Shown here: positions 22,436-64,000 of the stretch, piece by piece | Position numbering within the stretch: the stretch's first letter is position 1 | How the letters are laid out: the number at the start of each line of letters is the position of its first letter | Virus record (IMG/VR): IMGVR_UViG_3300035145_003920 | Span: 13,468 to 77,467 of that record | Source of the DNA: a virus | Length of the DNA: 64,000 nt | Strand: one strand, 5' to 3' | The notes under the pieces: generated by a model | The model's input: only the letters and a program-made list of their open reading frames with translations | The model's database searches: none | What the model was told of the DNA's origin: nothing | Position numbers and translations under genes: made by a program

Positions 22436-23524
22436 TTATTTAAATTCCAATAGTTTAACTAGTGTTTTGAATACTTTTTGAGGTGTAATTACTTTATGGC
22501 AAATATGTTGTAAAGGTGTATTTTTATTTTCAGGACACCAATTCCAATCTCCTTTATCAAATTGATAATTTTTATTTACCCAACAATTATTACATACAGA
22601 ATAGTCTTCTACTTTAGTTAAACCTTGTGTAAATTCATACCCATAGGGTATAAAATTATTTATCATTAGTGTAGGTTTTCCTACAGCCCAATTAAACCAA
22701 GATAACCCTGAACCTAATCCTATAAAATATTCTGCATGGTATAGGTAGTTATAGGTATTTTCCCAATTTAATTTGGGTTTGTTTATGATATTTTTTTTAT
22801 TATGGTCTTCATAGGATATATCTACTACTTTATATCCTTTATCATTTAACATTCCTGCTAATTCTTCCCAGTAATTATAAGGCCATTCTTTTAATCCCGC
22901 AGTTGAATGTGGTCCTATACAAATGTATTTTTCTTTTAATGGTCTTTCTTTAGGTTTGAAATCAATACCATGGTTTATTTCTTTATAAGGCAAATTTAAT
23001 ATATCAGTAGCTGCCTGGATTAATGGGATAGTATTTGGTTTATTTGGGTGATAAGAACCTTCATCCCATGTATCATTAGTTATAAACCACCCTATTTCAA
23101 AACAAGCATAGTAATCTCCACCTTCCCCAGGTTCAACTAAATTAATATCTTTATATTTAGGTAAATTTTTAAACCATTCATTATGAAAAGTAGATAAAGA
23201 AACTTTACATTTATATTTTTTAGCAAATTCAATTGCTTGAGGAGCCCATGCTAATGTATCTCCTATTGATTTTGATGATAATGATATTCTAATATGTTTG
23301 CCTTTAGGATTAAATTTATGAACTATTTTATTATTAACTTTAATTACCCAAGGAGTATGCCATTTTTGACTACATTTACTCCACATATTATTTTGGATAT
23401 TAGTAGAGTATACAAGTTTATTAGTTTTAGAATCAATAAACTCAACAAAATAGTTTTGTTTAACATCCCCTATTACTTCTACTTTAGGAGCATAATCAAA
23501 AGAAATTTTTATTTTATTTTTCAT
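22436..23524 (-). CDS. Aah/TibC-like (autotransporter O-heptosyltransferase family) protein glycosyltransferase
   Basis: SKSIGDTLAW, FIGLGSGLSW, C-terminal CNNCW..WNWCP..C metal-finger cysteines. Confidence 0.75.
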   Translation of the reverse strand: MKNKIKISFDYAPKVEVIGDVKQNYFVEFIDSKTNKLVYSTNIQNNMWSKCSQKWHTPWVIKVNNKIVHKFNPKGKHIRISLSSKSIGDTLAWAPQAIEFAKKYKCKVSLSTFHNEWFKNLPKYKDINLVEPGEGGDYYACFEIGWFITNDTWDEGSYHPNKPNTIPLIQAATDILNLPYKEINHGIDFKPKERPLKEKYICIGPHSTAGLKEWPYNYWEELAGMLNDKGYKVVDISYEDHNKKNIINKPKLNWENTYNYLYHAEYFIGLGSGLSWFNWAVGKPTLMINNFIPYGYEFTQGLTKVEDYSVCNNCWVNKNYQFDKGDWNWCPENKNTPLQHICHKVITPQKVFKTLVKLLEFK

Positions 23525-24593
23525 TTAATAATGATTCATAAAATTTAATATGGTTATTAGCAAATTCACTAACTGAATTAGTAATATTTTTAGAATTATA
23601 TTTAATAGGTGAATGTATTGTTTCTATTAAATTATTTTTATCAGTAAATAAATTACCTGTTAATGGTGTAATAAAAGGAGTATATTCATCTCCATAATGA
23701 TCTAAGTTATAAGCCATTATCTTAATATTATTTGAAATAGCTTCTTTTAATACTATTGGATTACATTCCCAATTAGAAGTAAATAACATTAAATCTGACA
23801 TTTTAAAGAAAATATCTGTATCATTTCTTTCTCCCCAAATTAAAACATTAGGAGGAAATTCTTTCATTAATGGTTCCCAATATTTTTTAAAGTTAGGAGC
23901 TTGGTTACCTACAAAATGAAAAATATAAGTGTGTCCATATTTCTCATATAAGTTTTTTGCTATTTCTAAAGCATATCCTTGATTTTTTCCTGGGGTCCAT
24001 AATCCTATATTTACTATATGGTATTCACCTTTTAATAAATAACCTTTTTCAGTTAATATTTCATTCCTTGTTTTAGATGATTGTATAAGAGGATCAATTG
24101 GGAATGTAATTAAACTTTTTTTACCTTTTTGGTCTTTGAAAGTGTTTTCTATATGATGAGGTGTAACACAAGCATATCCATCAGGCTCATGTAATTTTCT
24201 TTCTGTAGGATTAAAATAAATATTATGACAAGTTTCTACTACTTTCCAAGGATGTTTTTTATCATATAATTCTTTTTGCAGCTTAGGATCAAATGAATTA
24301 CCTGGGTCAAATCCTTCTGGAATTTCTTCTATGTGGATAATATTAATATCTTTTTCATAACAAAGATTTATAATACCTTTTTGAGCATTTTTATTTCCTA
24401 AAAAGCTATAAAAATTTTCTCCTAATAATTTTTGAATTTGTTTTCTTTGAACAACATAATCATTGCTGTAGCACTTCCATTCAACTACATAAACTTCCCA
24501 ATCAGTATGTTGTTGTATTGCCTCAATACGTTTTAATAAAAACGCGGGCATTCCTCCTGTGCTTAAATGTGGTGCTATAAATAAAACTTTCAT
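23514..24593 (-). CDS. GT-B glycosyltransferase (GT4-like)
   Basis: APHLSTGGMP, NIGLWTPGKNQ, FTSNWECNPIVLKEA. Confidence 0.85.
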   Translation of the reverse strand: MKVLFIAPHLSTGGMPAFLLKRIEAIQQHTDWEVYVVEWKCYSNDYVVQRKQIQKLLGENFYSFLGNKNAQKGIINLCYEKDINIIHIEEIPEGFDPGNSFDPKLQKELYDKKHPWKVVETCHNIYFNPTERKLHEPDGYACVTPHHIENTFKDQKGKKSLITFPIDPLIQSSKTRNEILTEKGYLLKGEYHIVNIGLWTPGKNQGYALEIAKNLYEKYGHTYIFHFVGNQAPNFKKYWEPLMKEFPPNVLIWGERNDTDIFFKMSDLMLFTSNWECNPIVLKEAISNNIKIMAYNLDHYGDEYTPFITPLTGNLFTDKNNLIETIHSPIKYNSKNITNSVSEFANNHIKFYESLLNEK

Positions 24594-56443: not shown

Positions 56444-56926
56444 CTATTTATGCTCCTCCACAAAATCTTCAAATTCAATATTCGATAAATCTCTTGTATA
56501 AAATTTACCTAAAATATTATCATTGAAAAATTCATCTGGTTTTTCTAATACCTGATATATCATTTGGTATTTCACTTCAAAATAAGTTAATGATTTTTTA
56601 TCAGGACACATTTTTAAAATGGTACGTTGGAATTCATCTTTTTTACCTTCAAGTAATAATTGTTTAATCTCTTTTTGAGACCCATAATAATTAAGCCAAT
56701 CAGATTCTTTAACTACTAATTTATAAGCAGGACGACGTCCTACTACTCCTGATAGTTTTTCTAATTCTCGTTTTCCAATTTTTTGTTTTTTATTATGGAA
56801 CAATACTTTTTTTCCAATGTAGGCTTTACCTGAAGGGGCATGGGTAACTATGTAAACAAAACCAAATGTATTTTCTGGAAATTGAGTGATGTCTCCTATT
56901 TTATGTGTCTTATAGGTCCAACTCAT
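56444..56926 (-). CDS. GIY-YIG-like nuclease
   Basis: GFVY..YIGKK, YYGS, E..N. Confidence 0.7.
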   Translation of the reverse strand: MSWTYKTHKIGDITQFPENTFGFVYIVTHAPSGKAYIGKKVLFHNKKQKIGKRELEKLSGVVGRRPAYKLVVKESDWLNYYGSQKEIKQLLLEGKKDEFQRTILKMCPDKKSLTYFEVKYQMIYQVLEKPDEFFNDNILGKFYTRDLSNIEFEDFVEEHK

Positions 56927-56948: not shown

Positions 56949-57821
56949 TTAATTTCCTAGCGCCTCAATAATTTTGCTAGAATCAAATATTTCATTTATA
57001 TTGTTATAAGGCAAAGTGTGTATGTCTTGATACAAATTAAAAGGTTGGTATACTGCTTGGTCTAATTTAGGTTCTTTGGTAAAAGAATTAGCTAAAATAT
57101 TAGTATGGGATTGATAACCAAATATTTTAGGATTAGTAGTTACCCAACACACTACAGAAGGTAATTTTAAAGATGCAGCTAAATGTTGAGCAAAAGAATC
57201 TATTAATAATCTTTTTTTAGATAACATTAACATTATAGCTATACTTCTATACCCATCTAAAGCTGATAAGGTATTTTCATATTGGGGTTGATCTTTTCTT
57301 CTTATTTGAATTATAGTATAATCATTTTTATAATGATTAATAATATCAACCATAGTTGAAGATGGAATATCTCTAGTCCAAGAATATTGATAGCCTTGAC
57401 CCTCAGGTCCTCCATGAGGATGAACTACAAATATTGGTTTTTCAGGTTGGTAATAAGGAGTAAAATAATCTATTTCCGCTTGTGTTAAATAAAATTCTGG
57501 AGATTCTCCTTTATATTGTACCCCACATAATCTACACCAAGTTTCTAATAACGATTCTTGTTCAGTTAAAAAATTATTATGACTATAGGGTTCGAAAGCA
57601 AATACCTTAGCATCTTGATTTTTAATATATCTTTCATAAAGACCATTTACTTGATTAGATAAATAAGTTTTATCTACTTTTGGATTATTTAAAAATACAT
57701 CGGGAAAAGCTGTTACTACTATAATTTTAGCAGTTTTATATCTTTTTTTTATTGCTGAGATTACAGCTGTGGAGGCAATGCTTTTTCCAAGCCCCCCATC
57801 TACTTGAAATATTATGTTCAT
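56949..57821 (-). CDS. GT9 / heptosyltransferase-like glycosyltransferase
   Basis: GGLGK, PDVFLNNP.V, IDSFAQHLAASL..PSVV.W..FGY. Confidence 0.75.
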   Translation of the reverse strand: MNIIFQVDGGLGKSIASTAVISAIKKRYKTAKIIVVTAFPDVFLNNPKVDKTYLSNQVNGLYERYIKNQDAKVFAFEPYSHNNFLTEQESLLETWCRLCGVQYKGESPEFYLTQAEIDYFTPYYQPEKPIFVVHPHGGPEGQGYQYSWTRDIPSSTMVDIINHYKNDYTIIQIRRKDQPQYENTLSALDGYRSIAIMLMLSKKRLLIDSFAQHLAASLKLPSVVCWVTTNPKIFGYQSHTNILANSFTKEPKLDQAVYQPFNLYQDIHTLPYNNINEIFDSSKIIEALGN

Positions 57822-57839
57822 AACTATTTTTTAATTAAA

Positions 57840-58157
57840 TTACCAAGGTAATCCCGCTTCGTGAGTAGGAGCTGAGTAATTTGATTCCATTTCGGCTAAT
57901 GATGATGATGTTTCAACTTCCCAAGCAGTTTCATCAATATTATCATTAACCCAACCTAAAACGATTTCTTCAGTAAGATCAGCAAAAGCTACAAATCCCG
58001 GATCACTAACTGAACCTGTAATTTCAATTTCTCCTAATTTTCTAGTTTCAAATTTAGGATCAGTACCAACTGATGAGTATAGTCCAAATTCTACTTTGTT
58101 AACTACTCCGTTACTAATAGTTCTACCTAGGTTTGAAATTTTCCAAATATGTTCCAT
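57840..58157 (-). CDS. Small late protein (possible tail-fibre assembly type)
   Basis: FVAFADLTEEIVLGWV..GLPW; late motif upstream. Confidence 0.6.
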   Translation of the reverse strand: MEHIWKISNLGRTISNGVVNKVEFGLYSSVGTDPKFETRKLGEIEITGSVSDPGFVAFADLTEEIVLGWVNDNIDETAWEVETSSSLAEMESNYSAPTHEAGLPW

Positions 58158-58188
58158 TATTTAATTTTATTATAAATATATAATTTTT

Positions 58189-58761
58189 TTATTTAATTAA
58201 CACTAACCAACTTTCATCTTCATATTCTTTATGGACACTTCCAAATTTTTCATTTACTGCCTTCATAACCCCGGGCCATTCTTTTTGATAATCATGTCCT
58301 CCTATAAGGTATTTAGTTTTTGGAAAATATAATTCTAAATCTTTTTTTACATCTTCATAGTCATGAGAAGCATCTATATAAATAAAATCAAAGTACCCAT
58401 CTTTAAATTTATCAACAATATTATAACTATAATCTTTATGCAAAGTTATATTATCAAATTGTCTTGTATTTAATATAAATTCTTTTTTTACTTCATCCCA
58501 ATCTTCTTTAAAAATTCCTTTTGCTTCCTCTTTTCCTTTATAAGGATCTATACAATGTATTTCCTTAAAAATCCCAGAAGCTGCAAACATAAATGTAGAT
58601 TCTCCTTTATAAGATCCTATTTCTAACATTTTAGGGTTTTTTATATCTTTTAAAAGTAAAAATAAATCAAATAACATTTTTAATAAACCAAAAAAATATC
58701 GGTTTAAGTTAGGATTGGCATTCCATTCAGGTTTTGGATTAAATCGATGGGAATATTTCAT
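58189..58761 (-). CDS. Class I SAM methyltransferase (Methyltransf_24-like)
   Basis: LEIGSYKGES, CIDPY, FIYIDASHDY, GGHDY. Confidence 0.9.
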   Translation of the reverse strand: MKYSHRFNPKPEWNANPNLNRYFFGLLKMLFDLFLLLKDIKNPKMLEIGSYKGESTFMFAASGIFKEIHCIDPYKGKEEAKGIFKEDWDEVKKEFILNTRQFDNITLHKDYSYNIVDKFKDGYFDFIYIDASHDYEDVKKDLELYFPKTKYLIGGHDYQKEWPGVMKAVNEKFGSVHKEYEDESWLVLIK

Positions 58762-59404
58762 TATAAAAACCTTTAAAATTAGGATAAGGGTAAGTAGGAT
58801 TATTATGGTAATTTCCTATTGGGTGTGTTGAATAAACACAAGCATATAACCCTCTAACACTTTGTGATGTATTTTTTCTAGAACCATGTAATGTATTTCC
58901 TTCAATAGCTACAATATCACCTGCTTTAGCTATAATTTCTTCCCATTTATCTGTTTTTTTATTTAAACAAATTAAAGGACCTGTTTTAGAAGGCATATCA
59001 TTTAAAATCCAAGATATATTTACAGTTTTAAAATCTCCCCTTTCTGCTGCTTTAGGATCGGGACCATACTGATTATCATAATGTGGTTCAAATTTAAATT
59101 TTGTTCCTGGGAGTTTTACAACTACTTGATCATTAAAAAGATAGGGTTTATCAGTTTCTAATAATGTTGAAGATAAATCATACATTATTTTAGAAGTATA
59201 TGATTTAAATAATTTAGAATCTAATTTACTAGCCATTTCAAAACCTTCCCAAAATTTGCCTGTACCCCAATCCCTGGGTTTGCCAGTAGAATTCATATAT
59301 TTATATTTCATTTTAATAGCCAAATCCCTAGTGTATTCTAGTAATTTACTATCTATTACATTTTCTAAGTGTATAAAACCTTGTTCTTTAAATTTTTGCA
59401 ACAT
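58739..59404 (-). CDS. PhyH-like 2OG-Fe(II) dioxygenase
   Basis: F.EQGF, HYD, AGD, LHGS..N.S..R. Confidence 0.85.
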   Translation of the reverse strand: MLQKFKEQGFIHLENVIDSKLLEYTRDLAIKMKYKYMNSTGKPRDWGTGKFWEGFEMASKLDSKLFKSYTSKIMYDLSSTLLETDKPYLFNDQVVVKLPGTKFKFEPHYDNQYGPDPKAAERGDFKTVNISWILNDMPSKTGPLICLNKKTDKWEEIIAKAGDIVAIEGNTLHGSRKNTSQSVRGLYACVYSTHPIGNYHNNPTYPYPNFKGFYNEIFPSI

Positions 59405-59406
59405 AA

Positions 59407-60756
59407 TTATATTTCTATAATCCAGCTATCATCTTTAAATGTTTTAATGTCTTTACCGTTAAATACATCATTAATTATTTCTTTTCCTATACTATAATTA
59501 GAACCACCTATTAATTTAGTATTAGTAGAATATAACATTAAATTTGATTTTAAATTAGCTAGATCACGATTTCTTAAATTGTAATACACAAATGATAAAT
59601 TTTGATTTTTTATATTATCTTTTATTATTCCTATTTTATTTTTAAAAAAATAAGTATTATTATTAAAAGCTGAAGAGATATCTTTCCAAGTTAGATTATT
59701 ATTTATATTAAATATATCTTCTCCTTGTAATTTTTGTATACAGTAAATATATGAGAAAATATTACTACATCCAAAGAAAAAAGTATTTTCTCCTGTATGA
59801 GGGTTTATTTCTAACATTTTATGTTTTTCTTCCTCATTTAATTTTGTTGTAACAAAACTTAATAAATCACTTATACCAAAAAAATTATTATTAAATTTAG
59901 AACCCCCTGGGTTAAATTTTTGAATTCCAAATTTAGGTAAATCAAATACTAATTCAACATATCTATCTAATAAATCTTTAGGGTGTTTTAAATATTTAAC
60001 TAATTCATGATTGTATACTTTTCCTTCTTCATCAAAAGATATAGCTACGTCTCCATCACTTTTTCTATAGTCATTATAATAAGTATCGGAATCGGCATTT
60101 TGGGATTCTACTAAATCATTTACTTGTTGTATTAAACTGTTTCTTAAAGTAAAAACTTTATGGGTTTTTACATATTGTTCTAAATAAACATCAGCGGCAT
60201 ATTTAATAGGAAGATAATTATCTGAAAGGGTTTTTATCATGTCTTTAGTAGCTACATAAGCATGGGCACCTTCGTAATTATTATTAAATTTAGGAACTGT
60301 TAAATACTTACCTATATTCATTCCAAAAATTTGGGATTTCTTTTTACCCAAATGTAGTAAATCCCAATCATAAGATTGAATTTCATTTAATATATCTTGG
60401 TATTCATCAGTATATTGATTTTCTTCAACACATTTATTATATAGGAATACATCATCTTCTAAAAATAAAGCATTTTCAACTTCATCTTGTAATGCTTGAT
60501 CCCAAGCTTTTTTATGTGATAAAGCACAGGCAAAAACCCCCATTGTGACCATTCCATGAGGATCAAAAAATGATTTATTTAATTCTCTATTATATATTAA
60601 ATCTTGAATTTTTAATTGTTTACCATCTATTGCTTCAATAAATGTAAAATCTAAATAAGGATATTTTTTTTCTAAAGCAGTCCTTCTATCTAATCTACGT
60701 TTTAAATTAATAACATAAATTTTGTCAAATCCTAATGTAGAATGTTTATTATTCAT
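59407..60756 (-). CDS. GT25 glycosyltransferase fused to a degenerate methyltransferase domain
   Basis: YVINLKRRLDR, EAIDG, CALSH, LFLEDD, AHAY; C-terminus resembles the downstream methyltransferase. Confidence 0.85.
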   Translation of the reverse strand: MNNKHSTLGFDKIYVINLKRRLDRRTALEKKYPYLDFTFIEAIDGKQLKIQDLIYNRELNKSFFDPHGMVTMGVFACALSHKKAWDQALQDEVENALFLEDDVFLYNKCVEENQYTDEYQDILNEIQSYDWDLLHLGKKKSQIFGMNIGKYLTVPKFNNNYEGAHAYVATKDMIKTLSDNYLPIKYAADVYLEQYVKTHKVFTLRNSLIQQVNDLVESQNADSDTYYNDYRKSDGDVAISFDEEGKVYNHELVKYLKHPKDLLDRYVELVFDLPKFGIQKFNPGGSKFNNNFFGISDLLSFVTTKLNEEEKHKMLEINPHTGENTFFFGCSNIFSYIYCIQKLQGEDIFNINNNLTWKDISSAFNNNTYFFKNKIGIIKDNIKNQNLSFVYYNLRNRDLANLKSNLMLYSTNTKLIGGSNYSIGKEIINDVFNGKDIKTFKDDSWIIEI

Positions 60757-61790
60757 TATAAATGATTTGTTATAAATTCTTTATATAAATTTTTACAATT
60801 AGAATTATTTATCCAAGATATATCTTCTACGGTTTTAAATAATATACTTCTTAATTCTGAAACTGAGATGTTATTTATTTGGTTAAATATATTATTAAAA
60901 GATTCAATATTAGCATATTCTATAGAAAAGGGATAATCACTAAGATATTCAGATGATGAAGTATTTTTACTAATTATGGGAACAACACCATTAATTAAAC
61001 TTAAATACATAAAATAACTAAAAGAATTATATAAAGAACAATCATAATATATGTAGTTATTTAAATAAAATTTATTATAATCTTTTAATTTACCATAGAA
61101 ATTTATATTTGGATATTTTTCAGTTAAATAATTAACTATGTTTTCGTTTTTTACTGGGTTTTTTCCATGGGAACCATATAAAGAAAAATTAAAATTATTT
61201 AAATATTTTGAATAAAATTCTAGATGAAAAATTCCTTTAGAATATGAAGGAGTTCCATTATAACCTATATTATTAGTTTTTATAATATTTTGTTCATTTA
61301 ATTTTACAAATTCTTTTTTACCTAATGAAGGAGGTATTACACAAGATACAACTTTATTTGAAATATATTTTTCATTAAATAAATGTTTATCTTTTTCATT
61401 ATAAAATATGAACCCATCTGATAGGGAATATAATTCATTCCATTCATTAGTTTTTAAAGTAGAATAGACATAGTCTTTTTCAATTGAGAAATTTTTTACA
61501 AATTCAGTATTTAAGTCTTTTTCAACTTCAGGAATTGTATCTACAATAAAAATTTTAGGAATTGTTAATTCAGAAAGGAAATTTACTATATATTGATAGC
61601 TTGTAATTTCGGAATTTAGTAATACTAAAGCATGAGTATAATATTGATTTAAAGAATATACTTGATTTTCATTTTTAAATTCAATAACATCCTCGGGGAG
61701 TAATTCTAAAGTATCAATTAATTGGTTTAAAATTAAAGTTTCTTCAATATACCCTTTATTAACATAATTGGTAATTAAACATAACTTCAT
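60756..61790 (-). CDS. Divergent GT-B (GT4-like) glycosyltransferase
   Basis: IGYNG..SKG, INFYG, S.Y.SF...SLINGVVPIIS. Confidence 0.6.
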   Translation of the reverse strand: MKLCLITNYVNKGYIEETLILNQLIDTLELLPEDVIEFKNENQVYSLNQYYTHALVLLNSEITSYQYIVNFLSELTIPKIFIVDTIPEVEKDLNTEFVKNFSIEKDYVYSTLKTNEWNELYSLSDGFIFYNEKDKHLFNEKYISNKVVSCVIPPSLGKKEFVKLNEQNIIKTNNIGYNGTPSYSKGIFHLEFYSKYLNNFNFSLYGSHGKNPVKNENIVNYLTEKYPNINFYGKLKDYNKFYLNNYIYYDCSLYNSFSYFMYLSLINGVVPIISKNTSSSEYLSDYPFSIEYANIESFNNIFNQINNISVSELRSILFKTVEDISWINNSNCKNLYKEFITNHL

Positions 61791-62714
61791 TTAGATCATG
61801 TTTTTCTTTTTTAACTCTTCTTTTAATTTTTGATCAATAAACCAATGTTTATAATAATCTCTTTTTTCACAAATATATGCAAAATAATCATCTACTTTAT
61901 CTTTCCAATTTTTATCAATGTAAGGATTAATTACACCTGATTTTGGATTAGAAAAAGTTTTATTTATCCATTCTTTTCCATGATGTTGATGAGCAAAAGC
62001 TTGTGTGTTTAAAGCATAAAAGGATGATTGGGCAATATCATTATAAACATCTACTGCTTCAACCGGTTTACCTAATGCAATAGCATTAATTACTGATTCA
62101 CTCCAGTGAGTTGAATACACTTTTTTAGCTTTATTTAAAAAATGATATAAATCAATATCTCTAGGAAGTACAGCATCTGCTCCTAATAAATCTTTTAATT
62201 CCCCAACAACAGCATGAGTTGTAATAGGATGAGGTTTAAAATAAAGATTATCACTATATTTCTTTTTTAGATATCTTAATTTATTTAAACAAGTATTACC
62301 TTTTAATTTATTAGATCCTGGGAGTACTACTATATTTTCTACATCTCTGTATTGTTCAAAATCTTGTTCTCTACTTTGGTATTTATTAGCTGTTTTTTCT
62401 TCTACTCTTTTAGCCATATGAGAAGCGAAGTCAATAATAGGATAATCAGTTTGATCATACCATGCATCTGTAATAGATTCTAATCTTAATTTTAAGTTTA
62501 GGGGTTGTAAATAAAAATTTCCAGCATGTTCTGTATAACCCATTGTTTTAAAATAGGGCATTTCTTCTGCTAATACATCATAACTATGTTCGATATCTAA
62601 TTCTTTACATTTACGAATTACATACCCTTCAACATCTTCTAAATCTCTAAGATTTGTGTTTTTCTTTAATGAACCAATTCTTTCTTCAAGAACCTTTTTA
62701 TTGAACATTTCCAT
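61791..62714 (-). CDS. KpsS/KpsC-like capsular polysaccharide synthesis domain protein
   Basis: KYQ, YFKPHP, S.S.I.A.ALGKPV. Confidence 0.55.
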   Translation of the reverse strand: MEMFNKKVLEERIGSLKKNTNLRDLEDVEGYVIRKCKELDIEHSYDVLAEEMPYFKTMGYTEHAGNFYLQPLNLKLRLESITDAWYDQTDYPIIDFASHMAKRVEEKTANKYQSREQDFEQYRDVENIVVLPGSNKLKGNTCLNKLRYLKKKYSDNLYFKPHPITTHAVVGELKDLLGADAVLPRDIDLYHFLNKAKKVYSTHWSESVINAIALGKPVEAVDVYNDIAQSSFYALNTQAFAHQHHGKEWINKTFSNPKSGVINPYIDKNWKDKVDDYFAYICEKRDYYKHWFIDQKLKEELKKKNMI

Positions 62715-62739
62715 ATATAAAATAACTTTTTAGTATTAA

Positions 62740-62771
62740 CCAATATAATAATAACCTTTTAAAAAACCAAA
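62740..62771 (-). promoter_or_regulatory. Bacteroidota-type promoter heading the glycan cassette
   Basis: TTTG-N20-TATATTGG. Confidence 0.6.
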
Positions 62772-63998
62772 TTACTTTCCTCTATTTTTATATCTATTCC
62801 ATTCTCCTCTACTCCATTTACTTTTACTATTATTTTTAACATATTGTACTTTTCCTACTTTAGATTTAGAAGTATTTTTAACATGTCTATCAACTATAGT
62901 AGAATACCATCCTCTTGCTACTGAGGTATTTGTTGTTTTATCAGTAGACCTTCCTGTACCCGTATATGTTTGAGTAGAGAAAGTTGTTGTGGTACTACGA
63001 GTTGTAGTCCAAGTAGTAGTCCATGTTGTTACTGTTGATGCACTAGTAGTCCATGATGTTGTAGTTGATTTACTTGTATTAAATGTTGTAGTTGTTGATC
63101 TACTAGTAGACCAAGTTGTATTAAACGTTGTAGTTGTATTAGCACTTGTTGAAAAAGTTGTTGTTGTACTTTGACTAGTAGTCCAACTAGTTGTAGTAGA
63201 TCTAGTAGTATTAAAGGTAGTTGTTGTACTACGAGTTGTTGACCAAGTTGTATTAAACGTTGTGGTTGTACTAGAACTAGTACTAAATGTTGTTGTTGTA
63301 TTCTGACTTGTACTAAATGTAGTTGTTGTACTACGAGTTGTATTAAATGTAGTAGTAGTAGTTTTACTAGTACTCCAAGATGTATTGAATGTAGTGGTTG
63401 TACTTTGACTAGTACTAAATGTTGTTGTAGTACTTTGGCTTGTATTAAATGTAGTAGTTGTACTACGAGTAGTATTCCAACTTGTAGAAGTTGTTCTAGT
63501 AGTATTCCAACTTGTAGTTGTTGATTTACTAGTACTAACACTTGTACTAAAAGTAGTGGTTGTAGATTTACTAGTACTAAATGTTGTTAATGTAGTTCTA
63601 GTAGTGTTCCAAGAAGTGGAAGTAGTTTTAGTAGTATTCCAACTTGTAGTGAATGTAGTTGTTGTTGATTTACTTGTTGCAAAAGTGGTTGTTCTACTAG
63701 TATTCCAAGATGTAGTAAAAGTTGTTGTTGTGCTTTTACTAGTATTATAAGTTGTTGTCCTACTTGTATTCCAGCTTGTAGTTGTTGATCTGCTAGTGCT
63801 TACACTTGTATTAAATGTTGTAGTAGTACTCTGACTTGTGTTAAAATATGTTGTTCTACTCGTATTAAAAGTGGTGGTTGTTGATCTACTAGTACTTTGA
63901 CTTGTAGCAAATGTTGTAGTAGTACTCTGACTAGTATTAAAGTATGTTGTTCTACTAGTATTAAATGTTGTAGTAGTTGATTTACTAGTACTTTGGCT
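62772..63998 (-). CDS. Partial (start lies beyond the window) Thr/Ser-rich repeat protein with basic/Trp C-terminus
   Basis: Open frame of more than 400 codons built from (R/K/Q)STTTTF(N/S)TS-type units, ending WSRGEWNRYKNRGK*. Confidence 0.88.
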   Translation of the reverse strand, partial: SQSTSKSTTTTFNTSRTTYFNTSQSTTTTFATSQSTSRSTTTTFNTSRTTYFNTSQSTTTTFNTSVSTSRSTTTSWNTSRTTTYNTSKSTTTTFTTSWNTSRTTTFATSKSTTTTFTTSWNTTKTTSTSWNTTRTTLTTFSTSKSTTTTFSTSVSTSKSTTTSWNTTRTTSTSWNTTRSTTTTFNTSQSTTTTFSTSQSTTTTFNTSWSTSKTTTTTFNTTRSTTTTFSTSQNTTTTFSTSSSTTTTFNTTWSTTRSTTTTFNTTRSTTTSWTTSQSTTTTFSTSANTTTTFNTTWSTSRSTTTTFNTSKSTTTSWTTSASTVTTWTTTWTTTRSTTTTFSTQTYTGTGRSTDKTTNTSVARGWYSTIVDRHVKNTSKSKVGKVQYVKNNSKSKWSRGEWNRYKNRGK

Positions 63999-64000
63999 TG
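62990..64000 (-). repeat. Degenerate coding tandem repeat (~30-nt units plus 12- and 24-nt variants)
   Basis: Recurrent gtattaaatgttgtagtagt and actagta; synonymous codon variation. Confidence 0.85.

What the first reader, a model, noticed from the sequence alone, without database searches (positions are those of the whole stretch)
56949..64000. Mucin-like repeat protein with an adjacent glycan-building cassette: candidate phage virion glycocalyx
Seen: an ORF missed by the track (62772 to beyond 64000) is mostly Thr/Ser and carries many N-T-S / N-T-T triplets. Directly downstream are a KpsS-like protein, a GT4-like enzyme, a GT25, a PhyH dioxygenase, a SAM methyltransferase and, after one small gene, a GT9-like enzyme. 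Known: these families build and decorate oligosaccharides, Ser/Thr-rich repeats are typical O-glycan acceptors, and N-X-S/T is the acceptor of HMW1C-type cytoplasmic N-glycosyltransferases. Inference: the phage glycosylates its own fibre protein with a methylated/hydroxylated glycan, for shielding, adhesion or host recognition.
Basis: partly seen in the sequence, partly recalled or inferred. Interest (0 to 1): 0.85.

Follow-up and report, generated by a model that had tools for sequence, protein, structure and literature searches.

The report
Paired threonine-rich phage fibres with Kdo-type transferase
A marine phage carries one half of a pair of length-matched, threonine-rich fibre proteins, always followed by an unannotated enzyme shaped like bacterial Kdo sugar transferases. 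The phage therefore probably sugar-coats its own fibres, and the same gene pair in culturable Vibrio and Caulobacter phages makes this testable at the bench.

Summary
ORF 62772-63998(-) is real, is cut by the contig end, and is 44% Thr and 20% Ser.

The protein is not mucin-like. It has no proline and a strict 10-residue aromatic period.

In relatives it is "TS-B", the partner of an upstream "TS-A". TS-A ends in a self-cleaving Hint or S74 domain. Mature TS-A and TS-B lengths match (r=0.998, 242-1042 aa).

In 35 of 35 dereplicated lineages a T/S-repeat ORF directly precedes p307 (61791-62714). So does a smaller T/S-rich protein, with at most one small gene between, in KVP40, Caulobacter Cr30 and Percyvirus. 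p307 is a GT-B enzyme closest to the beta-Kdo transferases KpsC/WbbB, with an invariant KxHP motif. Several relatives encode KdsA and KdsB, which are very rare in phages.

The GT4-like/GT25/PhyH/methyltransferase cassette is a variable insert, not the conserved core. N-glycosylation is unsupported.

Best reading (~0.5): a heteromeric fibre glycosylated by p307 with a CMP-activated acid sugar. First readers noted this module on other DNA without follow-up. Other transferase families beside Thr tracts were followed up. No sugar has been measured.

The parts
62772..64000 (-). TS-B: the C-terminal 408 residues of a Thr/Ser/aromatic/basic decapeptide-repeat protein with a basic non-repeat tail. The N-terminus lies beyond the contig end.
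   Evidence: The C-terminal tail is homologous to TS-B of L048, L002 and L052. The closest complete orthologue, in L048, is 591 aa.
61791..62714 (-). p307: a GT-B-like enzyme closest in predicted fold to the beta-Kdo transferases KpsC/WbbB/KrkA. It has an invariant KxHP motif and is the conserved partner of the T/S-repeat genes.
   Evidence: AF2 model with pLDDT 82. Foldseek E 1.7e-5 and VIA Z 9.7 to 6mgb. KpsC chains are the only PDB sequence hits of the family profile. Synteny.
60756..61790 (-). p344: a GT4-like glycosyltransferase candidate, part of the variable cassette.
   Evidence: No Pfam hit. Atlas feature neighbours are GT4/Glycos_transf_1 clusters at 0.98. Present only in a subset of close relatives.
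59407..60756 (-). GT25 glycosyltransferase (residues 11-191) with an uncharacterised C-terminal half; variable cassette.
   Evidence: Pfam PF01755, E 1.2e-20; phrog_2835; distribution.
58739..59404 (-). PhyH-type 2OG/Fe(II) dioxygenase; variable cassette.
   Evidence: Pfam PF05721, E 3.9e-13. An H-x-D at residue 108 and later His residues are present. Not detected in any fetched relative.
58189..58761 (-). Class I SAM methyltransferase (Methyltransf_24); variable cassette.
   Evidence: Pfam PF13578, E 2.1e-15. Only 28-33% identical counterparts in L048, L049 and L071.
57840..58157 (-). DUF7936 small protein. In the close clade it is kept between p307 (or the cassette) and the GT9-like gene.
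   Evidence: Pfam PF25590, E 2.5e-15; synteny.
56949..57821 (-). p290: a GT9-like (heptosyltransferase-like) protein, kept in the close clade with or without the cassette.
   Evidence: NCBIfam RfaQ, E 0.01, N-terminal part only. An Atlas neighbour cluster has PF01075 in 45% of members. Synteny.
56444..56926 (-). SegE-like GIY-YIG homing endonuclease. It marks the downstream boundary of the island; the primase gene follows.
   Evidence: Pfam PF19835, E 1.6e-26. The same boundary is seen in L001-L003, L048 and others.

Best explanation
The T/S-rich ORF is TS-B, one of two co-evolving repeat proteins. TS-A should lie just beyond the contig end. Together they form a heteromeric, beta-rich fibre of phage-specific length.

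TS-A is made with a C-terminal self-cleaving module, a Hint domain or in some lineages a Peptidase_S74 chaperone. Once that module is removed, TS-A is as long as TS-B.

The next gene, p307, is a phage-specific GT-B enzyme related in fold and nucleotide-binding motifs to the CMP-Kdo-dependent beta-Kdo transferases KpsC/WbbB. It most likely transfers Kdo, or a similar CMP-activated acid sugar, onto Ser/Thr of the TS proteins in the cytoplasm. The donor comes from the host, or from phage KdsA/KdsB where these are present.

In this phage the variable cassette (GT4-like, GT25, PhyH dioxygenase, methyltransferase), together with the GT9-like gene that the close clade keeps, would extend and decorate that glycan in a strain-specific way.

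Shown: the gene content, the synteny, the length matching, the fold similarity and the Kdo-gene co-occurrence. Inferred: that the fibre sits on the virion, that p307 acts on it, and that the sugar is Kdo.
For: 1. Synteny. With p307 dereplicated at 90% identity there are 38 lineages, 35 of them with at least 600 bp upstream. All 35 have a T/S-repeat ORF ending within 250 bp of p307 (34 by script, and L039 after correcting its coordinate). In 1.48 Mb of fetched DNA, the only other T/S-rich ORFs are four antisense shadows.

2. Distant p307 homologues follow small T/S/aromatic/Arg-rich proteins, directly or after one small gene, in four other phage types. These are KVP40.0254 then .0256, Percyvirus BL199 gp042 then gp043 after the tail fibre gp041, Cr30 before its neck genes, and L043-45.

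3. Fibre identity.
- The genes directly upstream carry a Peptidase_S74 domain or collagen repeats.
- TS-A ends in a Hint domain with Cys1, T-x-x-H and a terminal HN. Its profile matches 6y75 at E 8.7e-8 and inteins at 2e-5.
- In L014 TS-A ends instead in Peptidase_S74, at 27.8 bits.

4. Pairing. Pre-Hint TS-A length against TS-B length gives r=0.998 with a median difference of 14.5 aa over 242-1042 aa (34 distinct pairs). In S74 types, subtracting about 152-155 aa gives the TS-B length. In the main unfused type, with a methyltransferase-like gene between TS-A and TS-B, the lengths differ by 1-7 aa in six of eight pairs. Within a genome, A-B identity is no higher than the compositional background, so recent duplication does not explain the match.

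5. The enzyme.
- The model has pLDDT 82. Its top matches are KpsC, WbbB and KrkA: Foldseek E 1.7e-5, VIA Z 9.7 over 223 aa.
- K160, H162 and P163 are invariant over 67 diverse members.
- The only PDB sequence hits of the family profile are four KpsC chains. They align KpHP with KVHP, S-E with S-Q, and LGK with LGK.

6. The donor.
- All three near-complete relatives (88-100% complete) carry both KdsA and a KdsB-like gene. The one scored against NCBIfam reached 312 bits on the KdsA equivalog NF003543.
- L002's contig, a close relative, carries KdsA. Two more fragments carry a KdsB-like gene.
- Homologues occur in only 5 (KdsB) and about 4 (true KdsA) of 50,697 deposited phage records.
Against: - No glycan, virion location or enzyme activity has been measured for any member.
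- p307 fails the Pfam Capsule_synth model even at E 10. Its sequence hits to KpsC are individually not significant (E 0.07-0.2).
- I could not place the Asp nucleophile of KpsC/WbbB. The loop that may correspond, judged only from my unverified recollection of the KpsC sequence, reads LPGSN and has no invariant Asp.
- To my knowledge protein-linked Kdo has no precedent.
- The cultured carriers KVP40, Cr30 and Percyvirus lack kdsA/kdsB. Stenotrophomonas phage DLP_6 has a p307 homologue without an obvious T/S-rich neighbour.
- In this phage the island adjoins replication genes, and hypervariable islands rich in glycosyltransferases are common in marine myoviruses, where they are usually read as host-surface modification (PMC7029224).
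- The AF2 model of TS-B is of low confidence (pLDDT 51).
Confidence: 0.5

Rival explanations
1. p307 and the cassette remodel the host envelope (LPS core, O-chain or capsule) during infection, for example to block superinfection. The TS proteins are unmodified fibres, and the genes are neighbours only because both belong to a hypervariable host-recognition island.
For: - KpsC, KpsS and WbbB act on lipid or glycan acceptors, not on proteins (PDB titles).
- GT25 and GT9 are classic LPS-core families.
- The published reading of glycosyltransferase-rich islands among tail-fibre genes in pelagimyophages is host O-chain modification (PMC7029224).
- kdsA/kdsB in a cyanophage were likewise read as cell-wall modification (PMC12801897).
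Against: An island effect does not explain why p307 specifically follows a T/S-repeat ORF in 35 of 35 lineages and in four unrelated phage types. These include a 44-kb T7-like phage with no other glycosyltransferase nearby. The rest of the cassette, by contrast, comes and goes.
Confidence: 0.25
2. p307 is a nucleotide-binding but non-glycosylating assembly factor or chaperone for the TS-A/TS-B fibre. The fibre's Thr/Ser faces act as such, for example by binding polysaccharide or water. The cassette genes are unrelated auxiliary genes.
For: - Phage fibre genes are often followed by dedicated assembly chaperones.
- No Asp nucleophile could be assigned in p307.
- The TS proteins are strongly basic and hydroxyl-rich (38 K+R against 3 D+E), so they could bind anionic glycans without any modification.
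Against: KxHP, S-E and LGK, the elements that align with the KpsC nucleotide-sugar site, are invariant or nearly so across a family at 20-45% identity. Rare CMP-Kdo synthesis genes co-occur with the module.
Confidence: 0.12
3. The transferases, methyltransferase and dioxygenase hypermodify phage DNA, in keeping with their position next to the primase and SegE genes.
For: The island adjoins replication genes. Phage glycosyltransferases that decorate DNA are well known (as cited in PMC12619734). The methyltransferase's best PHROG is labelled DNA methyltransferase.
Against: - No thymidylate-synthase-like hydroxymethylase was found in the available 77 kb.
- In other phage types the module sits among fibre, neck or packaging genes rather than replication genes.
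- GT25, GT9 and KpsC-like enzymes are not known DNA transferases (my own knowledge).
Confidence: 0.05
4. One reading: a disordered mucin-like coat protein that is both O-glycosylated and N-glycosylated at N-x-S/T by an HMW1C-type cytoplasmic enzyme.
For: High Ser/Thr content and 24 N-x-S/T triplets.
Against: - The protein has no Pro, a strict 10-residue aromatic period and an all-beta prediction.
- Asn is fixed after the aromatic residue as part of the repeat.
- No GT41 match was found in the available half genome.
Confidence: 0.03

Closest known systems
Beta-Kdo glycosyltransferases KpsC/KpsS (CAZy GT107) and WbbB (GT99), and KrkA
   Same: They are the best structural matches to p307 over most of its length. 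The KxHP, Ser and LGK nucleotide-sugar-site motifs are shared. Relatives of this phage encode the CMP-Kdo pathway.
   Different: There is no significant sequence-family membership (PF05159 not matched). The Asp nucleophile is not identified. p307 is phage-only: I found no relative in 185,579 bacterial and archaeal species genomes. The presumed acceptor is a protein rather than a lipid or glycan.
Virion glycosylation of mycobacteriophages (Freeman et al. 2023, Cell Host Microbe 31:1216, as cited in PMC12619734)
   Same: Phage-encoded glycosyltransferases lie next to structural genes, and virion proteins are proposed as acceptors.
   Different: There the glycans sit on short C-terminal tracts of capsid and tail-tube subunits, were shown by MS, and the enzymes belong to other families. 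Here the acceptors would be dedicated repeat proteins that are almost wholly Ser/Thr, and nothing has been measured.
Serine-rich repeat adhesins with GtfA/GtfB, and AIDA-I/TibA autotransporters heptosylated by the GT9-like Aah/TibC enzymes (own knowledge)
   Same: A long Ser/Thr repeat or beta-helix repeat protein is encoded beside dedicated cytoplasmic O-glycosyltransferases. A GT9-like gene (p290) is kept beside the module in the close clade.
   Different: Those are secreted bacterial adhesins with signal peptides and export machinery. The TS proteins have no signal peptide, come as a length-matched pair, and are encoded by phages.
Phage tail fibres and spikes with a C-terminal Peptidase_S74 intramolecular chaperone, and Hint/Hedgehog-type autoprocessing domains
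   Same: TS-A of relatives ends in S74 (L014) or in a Hint domain with Cys1, T-x-x-H and a terminal HN. After removal of that domain, TS-A length equals TS-B length.
   Different: As far as I could find, the shaft is a new Thr/Ser/aromatic repeat with no Pfam family, paired with a second chain. A search found only four papers that mention a Hint domain and phage tail fibres together, and I did not read them.
Glycosyltransferase-rich host-recognition island of pelagimyophages and cyanomyophages (PMC7029224)
   Same: It is a hypervariable island that mixes fibre genes with glycosyltransferases, oxygenases and methyltransferases.
   Different: This phage is closest to Flavobacterium phage vB_FspM_immuto (TerL 61%), not to pelagiphages. 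That paper reads the enzymes as host O-chain modifiers. My term search of it found no mention of threonine, and I saw no mention of the T/S pair or p307.

Membership tests
Beta-Kdo transferases KpsC/KpsS/WbbB (Pfam PF05159 Capsule_synth; GT107/GT99) | Significant match to the family's sequence model | tested here: not met
   No Pfam hit for p307 at E up to 10. PF05159 finds nothing in the genome at E up to 10. The close-relative profile A1 gave no PDB sequence hit.
Beta-Kdo transferases KpsC/KpsS/WbbB | Two-domain GT-B-like fold closest to solved members | tested here: met
   Foldseek top hits are KrkA, KpsC and WbbB (E 1.7e-5 to 5e-4). VIA top four are 6mgb Z 9.7, 6mgd 8.0, 5fa0 7.7 and 9yfx 7.5. 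Model pLDDT 82.
Beta-Kdo transferases KpsC/KpsS/WbbB | HP motif and following Ser / LGK segment of the CMP-sugar site | tested here: met
   K160, H162 and P163 are invariant, and E206 and K216 nearly so, in 67 members. The profile aligns KpHP, S-E and LGK with KVHP, S-Q and LGK of KpsC.
Beta-Kdo transferases KpsC/KpsS/WbbB | Catalytic Asp nucleophile (D160 in KpsC, D232 in WbbB, D193 in KrkA, per PDB entry titles) | tested here: inconclusive
   No residue-level structural alignment was available. The conserved loop LPGSN (131-135), which may correspond, has no invariant Asp. That correspondence rests only on my unverified recollection of the KpsC sequence.
Beta-Kdo transferases KpsC/KpsS/WbbB | CMP-Kdo as donor | not testable with these tools
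   Indirect only: KdsA and KdsB-like genes occur in relatives that carry the module and are very rare in other phages.
Phage virion glycosylation (mycobacteriophage type) | Glycan detected on a virion protein, dependent on a phage glycosyltransferase | not testable with these tools
   Only gene adjacency is shown.
Mucin-type Pro/Thr/Ser domain | Pro-rich, irregular, disordered Ser/Thr tract | tested here: not met
   0 Pro in 408 aa. Aromatic residue every 10 residues (autocorrelation 0.52, about 10 sd above shuffles). All-beta AF2 prediction of low confidence.
HMW1C-type cytoplasmic N-glycosylation (GT41) | GT41 enzyme encoded, and sequons beyond what composition predicts | tested here: inconclusive
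   No PF13844 match, but only 48% of the genome is available. There are 24 sequons against 17.2 +/- 2.4 expected, and the excess is explained by the fixed [FWY]-N-T-[ST] repeat position.
Hint / intein superfamily (TS-A of relatives, not in the window) | Cys1, T-x-x-H block, C-terminal HN, and profile match to solved Hint domains | tested here: met
   Alignment A3 shows an invariant Cys and His and the NG-L-THN terminus. PDB profile hits: 6y75 at 8.7e-8, Pho RadA intein at 2.3e-5, MJ0781 at 1e-4. Pfam hits are only sub-threshold.
Tail-fibre intramolecular chaperone (Peptidase_S74) | S74 domain at the C-terminus of the fibre protein | tested here: met
   L014 TS-A C-terminus: 27.8 bits against a cut-off of 22. 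The fibre gene upstream in L002 also has it, at 46 bits. It was not seen in the window itself.
GT25, PhyH and Methyltransf_24 (cassette genes) | Pfam match above the curated cut-off | tested here: met
   74.6, 50.6 and 57.9 bits respectively.
GT4 (p344) and GT9 (p290) | Pfam match above the curated cut-off | tested here: inconclusive
   No Pfam hit. Atlas feature neighbours are GT4 clusters at 0.98 for p344, and a cluster with PF01075 in 45% of members for p290. RfaQ gives E 0.01 over the N-terminus of p290.

The most novel reading that the evidence does not exclude
TS-A and TS-B are a previously undescribed class of phage appendage. The appendage is a two-chain, length-matched Thr/Ser-repeat fibre. 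One chain is matured by Hint or S74 self-cleavage. The Hint thioester might even ligate that chain covalently to another molecule. The fibre is then O-glycosylated with Kdo by a phage-only KpsC-like transferase. This would be the first protein-linked Kdo, and a widespread marine-phage glycoprotein system with tractable counterparts in KVP40 and Caulobacter phages.
Probability: 0.3. Interest if true: 0.9.

Novelty: new variant of a known kind. Interest (0 to 1): 0.75.

Why it matters
Virion glycosylation has been shown by experiment only in mycobacteriophages.

Here a three-gene module (TS-A, TS-B and a KpsC-like transferase) recurs in more than 130 marine metagenome contigs and at least five phage lineages. 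It has no Pfam family and, as far as I could search, no literature.

The near-perfect length matching of the two chains points to a new fibre architecture whose length evolves freely. The link to CMP-Kdo genes suggests a sugar chemistry not known on proteins.

Small versions of the pair sit in KVP40, Cr30 and Caulobacter Percyviruses. Knock-outs, co-expression in E. coli and intact-mass MS could therefore settle the question quickly.

It would also change how glycosyltransferase-rich islands in marine phages are read: as self-decoration rather than host modification.

Tried and rejected
- Recovering the N-terminus by circular wrap: there is no terminal repeat, and the frame hits a stop 8 bases into the wrap.
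- Megablast of the region against deposited phages: no match.
- Pelagimyophage origin: rejected. TerL is closest to Flavobacterium phage vB_FspM_immuto at 61%.
- AF2 of TS-B from a single sequence: pLDDT 51, an all-beta meander. I used it only as a weak hint and ran no fold search on it.
- Complex prediction of full-length TS-A plus TS-B from L035: no verdict, score 0.00.
- The search for related loci gave little. The broad alignment A2 had no usable conserved stretch. Distant representatives P0020, P0049 and P0097 gave nothing, and P0118 gave three loci.
- The bacterial and archaeal genome scan found no relative.
- The promoter and terminator scan gave fewer promoter-like sites than shuffles, so it is uninformative.
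- Pfam Capsule_synth, GT41, CTP_transf_3, DAHP_synth_1, Thymidylat_synt and CsgG: no match in the available 77 kb, which is 48% complete.
- Recent duplication or gene conversion as the cause of A/B length matching: rejected. Within-genome A-B identity (54-67%) equals the between-genome compositional background.
- Literature: no paper names KVP40.0254 or KVP40.0256.

Full report
**What is there**

The window is the last 64 kb of a linear 77,467-bp viral contig, estimated 48% complete. All genes read on the minus strand.

PHROG matches identify a myovirus with sheath, T4-type capsid, portal and terminase. The terminase is closest to Flavobacterium phage vB_FspM_immuto at 61% identity. Together with about 30% G+C, this points to a marine Bacteroidota host rather than SAR11.

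ORF 62772-63998(-) is open for 408 codons and is cut by the contig end. There is no terminal repeat and no circular continuation.

- It is 44% Thr and 20% Ser, with no Pro. It holds 38 Lys+Arg against 3 Asp+Glu.
- It is built from an imperfect decapeptide, [NS]-T-[ST]-x-[ST]-T-T-T-T-[FW], with 4-residue inserts that give a 44-residue super-repeat.
- Aromatic lag-10 autocorrelation is 0.52, about ten standard deviations above shuffles.
- Against the orthologue in L001, the third codon position varies most and 76 codons differ synonymously, so the frame is coding.
- The many N-T-S/T triplets are only modestly above the compositional expectation (24 against 17.2 +/- 2.4). The excess arises because Asn is fixed after the aromatic residue of each repeat.

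**The downstream genes**

- Pfam confirms GT25, PhyH, Methyltransf_24 and DUF7936.
- For the GT4-like p344, the language-model Atlas places it among GT4 clusters.
- For the GT9-like p290, the Atlas places it near a cluster partly annotated GT9, and there is a weak RfaQ hit.
- For the KpsS-like p307, I built an alignment of 18 orthologues and an AF2 model with pLDDT 82.
- Foldseek and an independent aligner both rank the beta-Kdo transferases first: KpsC, WbbB and KrkA, with E 1.7e-5 and Z 9.7 over 223 residues.
- A profile of 67 diverse family members finds only four PDB sequences at E up to 10, and all four are KpsC.
- That profile aligns the family's invariant KxHP and its S-E and LGK segments with KVHP, S-Q and LGK of KpsC.

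However, p307 is not a sequence-level member of Capsule_synth, and I could not place the Asp nucleophile.

**What is conserved and what is not**

p307 retrieved 39 viral contigs and 133 metagenome matches, 80 of which were fetched. It retrieved none from 185,579 bacterial and archaeal species genomes. A full HMMER scan found 334 representative clusters.

With p307 dereplicated at 90% identity there are 38 lineages, 35 of them with at least 600 bp upstream. Every one of the 35 has a T/S-repeat ORF ending within 250 bp of p307, and usually two such ORFs in tandem. In 1.48 Mb of fetched DNA the only other T/S-rich ORFs are four antisense shadows.

The GT4-like/GT25/methyltransferase block behaves differently. 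It is present in the window, L047-L050, L062, L069 and L071. It is absent from equally close relatives such as L002, L003 and L051-L061, which run p307, DUF7936, GT9-like, SegE. The PhyH gene was seen only in the window. In other relatives the space after p307 holds a Trp halogenase, 2OG oxygenases, extra fibre-like genes, a HAD phosphatase or an ATP-grasp enzyme.

The conserved core is therefore T/S protein(s) plus p307. The cassette is a variable insert.

**Distant carriers**

Among 50,697 deposited phages, the p307 family occurs only in KVP40-like Vibrio phages, Caulobacter phage Cr30, Caulobacter Percyvirus-like podophages and Stenotrophomonas phage DLP_6.

- In KVP40 the homologue (.0256) is preceded by a 197-aa protein (.0254) with 49% Thr+Ser and T-S-R-S-T/aromatic repeats. 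A 72-aa protein whose sequence looks coiled-coil lies between them.
- In BL199 the order is tail fibre gp041, then gp042 (217 aa, 39% Thr+Ser, 15% aromatic), then gp043.
- In Cr30 a 117-aa Thr/Tyr-rich protein precedes the homologue, and neck genes follow.
- A further uncultured lineage (L043-45) shows the same pairing.
- DLP_6 is the one case without an obvious T/S-rich neighbour.

**The T/S proteins are a pair of fibre proteins**

The window's protein has the basic tail typical of the second gene, TS-B. The first gene, TS-A, should lie beyond the contig end.

Directly upstream of TS-A, relatives carry fibre genes: a Peptidase_S74-bearing protein in L002 and a collagen-repeat protein in L007.

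TS-A itself ends in a roughly 165-aa domain with an invariant Cys at its start, a T-x-D-H-x-H block and a terminal N-G-I-L-T-H-N motif. Its profile matches solved Hint and intein structures, with 6y75 at 8.7e-8 and the Pho RadA intein at 2e-5. In another lineage (L014) TS-A ends instead in a Peptidase_S74 intramolecular chaperone. Both are self-cleaving C-terminal modules, and S74 is known from tail fibres and spikes.

The lengths match strikingly.

- In 34 distinct Hint-type pairs, the length of TS-A before the Hint Cys tracks TS-B with r=0.998. The median difference is 14.5 residues over a range of 242-1042.
- In S74-type pairs the A-minus-B difference is 152-163 residues, about the size of the domain.
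- In the main unfused type, with a methyltransferase-like gene between the two, A and B differ by 1-7 residues in six of eight pairs, for example 576/577, 750/753 and 1203/1210.

A and B also share their repeat periods within a genome. Yet they are no more alike than compositionally similar proteins from different genomes. This argues for in-register pairing rather than recent duplication.

AF2 on TS-B alone gives a low-confidence all-beta meander.

**The sugar**

None of the searched sugar-activation or related families was found in the available half of this genome.

- All three near-complete relatives with the module (G005, G007, G009) encode a KdsA and a KdsB-like gene. The G005 copies sit in one small cluster: its KdsA reaches 312 bits on the NCBIfam equivalog, and its KdsB-like cytidylyltransferase scores E 1.7e-33.
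- L002's contig, a close relative of this phage, encodes KdsA.
- Two further fragments encode a KdsB-like gene.
- Homologues of these genes occur in only 5 and about 4 of 50,697 deposited phage records.
- A 2025 paper calls them a first for cyanophages (PMC12801897).

This independently fits a Kdo-type transferase, although the cultured carriers lack these genes and would need host CMP-Kdo.

**Interpretation**

The best-supported model has three parts. A heteromeric Thr/Ser-repeat fibre is matured by C-terminal self-cleavage. It is glycosylated on Ser/Thr by p307 with a CMP-activated acid sugar, probably Kdo. A strain-variable set of tailoring enzymes then acts on it.

The fibre identity and the A/B pairing are well supported. 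The enzyme class is moderately supported. The enzyme-substrate link rests on synteny alone. I give the whole model about 0.5.

The main rival is host-envelope remodelling, the usual reading of such islands (PMC7029224). It explains the enzyme families but not the exclusive p307 and T/S-ORF adjacency across unrelated phages.

The literal mucin and N-glycan model is not supported.

**Relation to earlier notes of this scan**

First readers flagged the same module on other genomes: paired Thr-rich proteins, a Hint domain and a KPHP transferase. None of these was followed up. Follow-ups on other DNA described different transferase families beside Thr tracts. I treated these notes as leads. The length matching, Hint assignment, fold assignment and Kdo-gene link were all tested here.

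Noticed in passing
window 22436-24593 (-): A GT9 (Pfam E 1e-8) and a GT4/Glycos_transf_1 (E 4e-9) gene overlap between the neck and sheath genes. That makes two more glycosyltransferases inside the morphogenesis module of the same phage.
   Followed up: partly
L009 7170-8216; L013 5232-6311; L020 35-1075: In the roughly 45-70 kb phage type, a 347-360-aa protein lies between TS-A and TS-B. It has a weak SAM-methyltransferase N-half and a Hint-like C-half. There TS-A ends in G-G-C-[MF]-R-[GN]-C-[IM], which looks like the first Hint block. This may be a naturally split Hint domain.
   Followed up: partly
L128 9724-12940 (G005:C1:59723-62939): A complete 69.5-kb phage carrying the module has a cluster of a JmjC-type oxygenase, a cupin, a KdsB-like cytidylyltransferase, a methyltransferase and KdsA, next to ribonucleotide reductase genes.
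   Followed up: partly
L001 1934-10532: In a close relative (p307 86% identical), the island after p307 holds two fibre-like proteins of 859 and 826 aa, a tryptophan halogenase (Pfam E 1e-67) and a 2OG oxygenase. This is notable because the T/S proteins are Trp-rich.
   Followed up: no
L032 10136-11550; L007 10922-12324: In the roughly 150-kb relatives, p307 is followed, at once in L007 and after one small ORF in L032, by a small HAD-type phosphatase and an ATP-grasp enzyme. The ATP-grasp gives only sub-threshold Pfam hits to sugar-transfer-associated and TTL-like ATP-grasp families.
   Followed up: no
L007 125-3091; L002 4026-4379; L032 2109-2585; L009 4743-5411: The gene just upstream of TS-A always ends in the same short C-terminal segment (...S-Y-x-x-x-A-x-D-K-[IV]-L-V-x-Y-[IV]-G-N-F). 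This holds whether the protein is a 989-aa collagen-repeat fibre or a 118-223-aa protein.
   Followed up: no
L041 7757-7975 (KVP40.0255); L040 6472-6672 (Cr30); L046 1664-1837 (DLP_6): A 57-72-aa protein lies close to the p307 homologue in three T4-like phages. I judged it coiled-coil by eye. It sits directly before the homologue in KVP40 and DLP_6, and two genes upstream in Cr30.
   Followed up: no
window 64000 (contig end): The assembly breaks inside the T/S repeat. Many related contigs also begin or end in these genes, so short-read assemblies probably under-recover this module systematically.
   Followed up: no
window 59407-60756 (-), residues ~200-449: The C-terminal 250 residues of the GT25 protein have no significant family. 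The only hit is a sub-threshold match to a SAM_CEP-1_C model.
   Followed up: no
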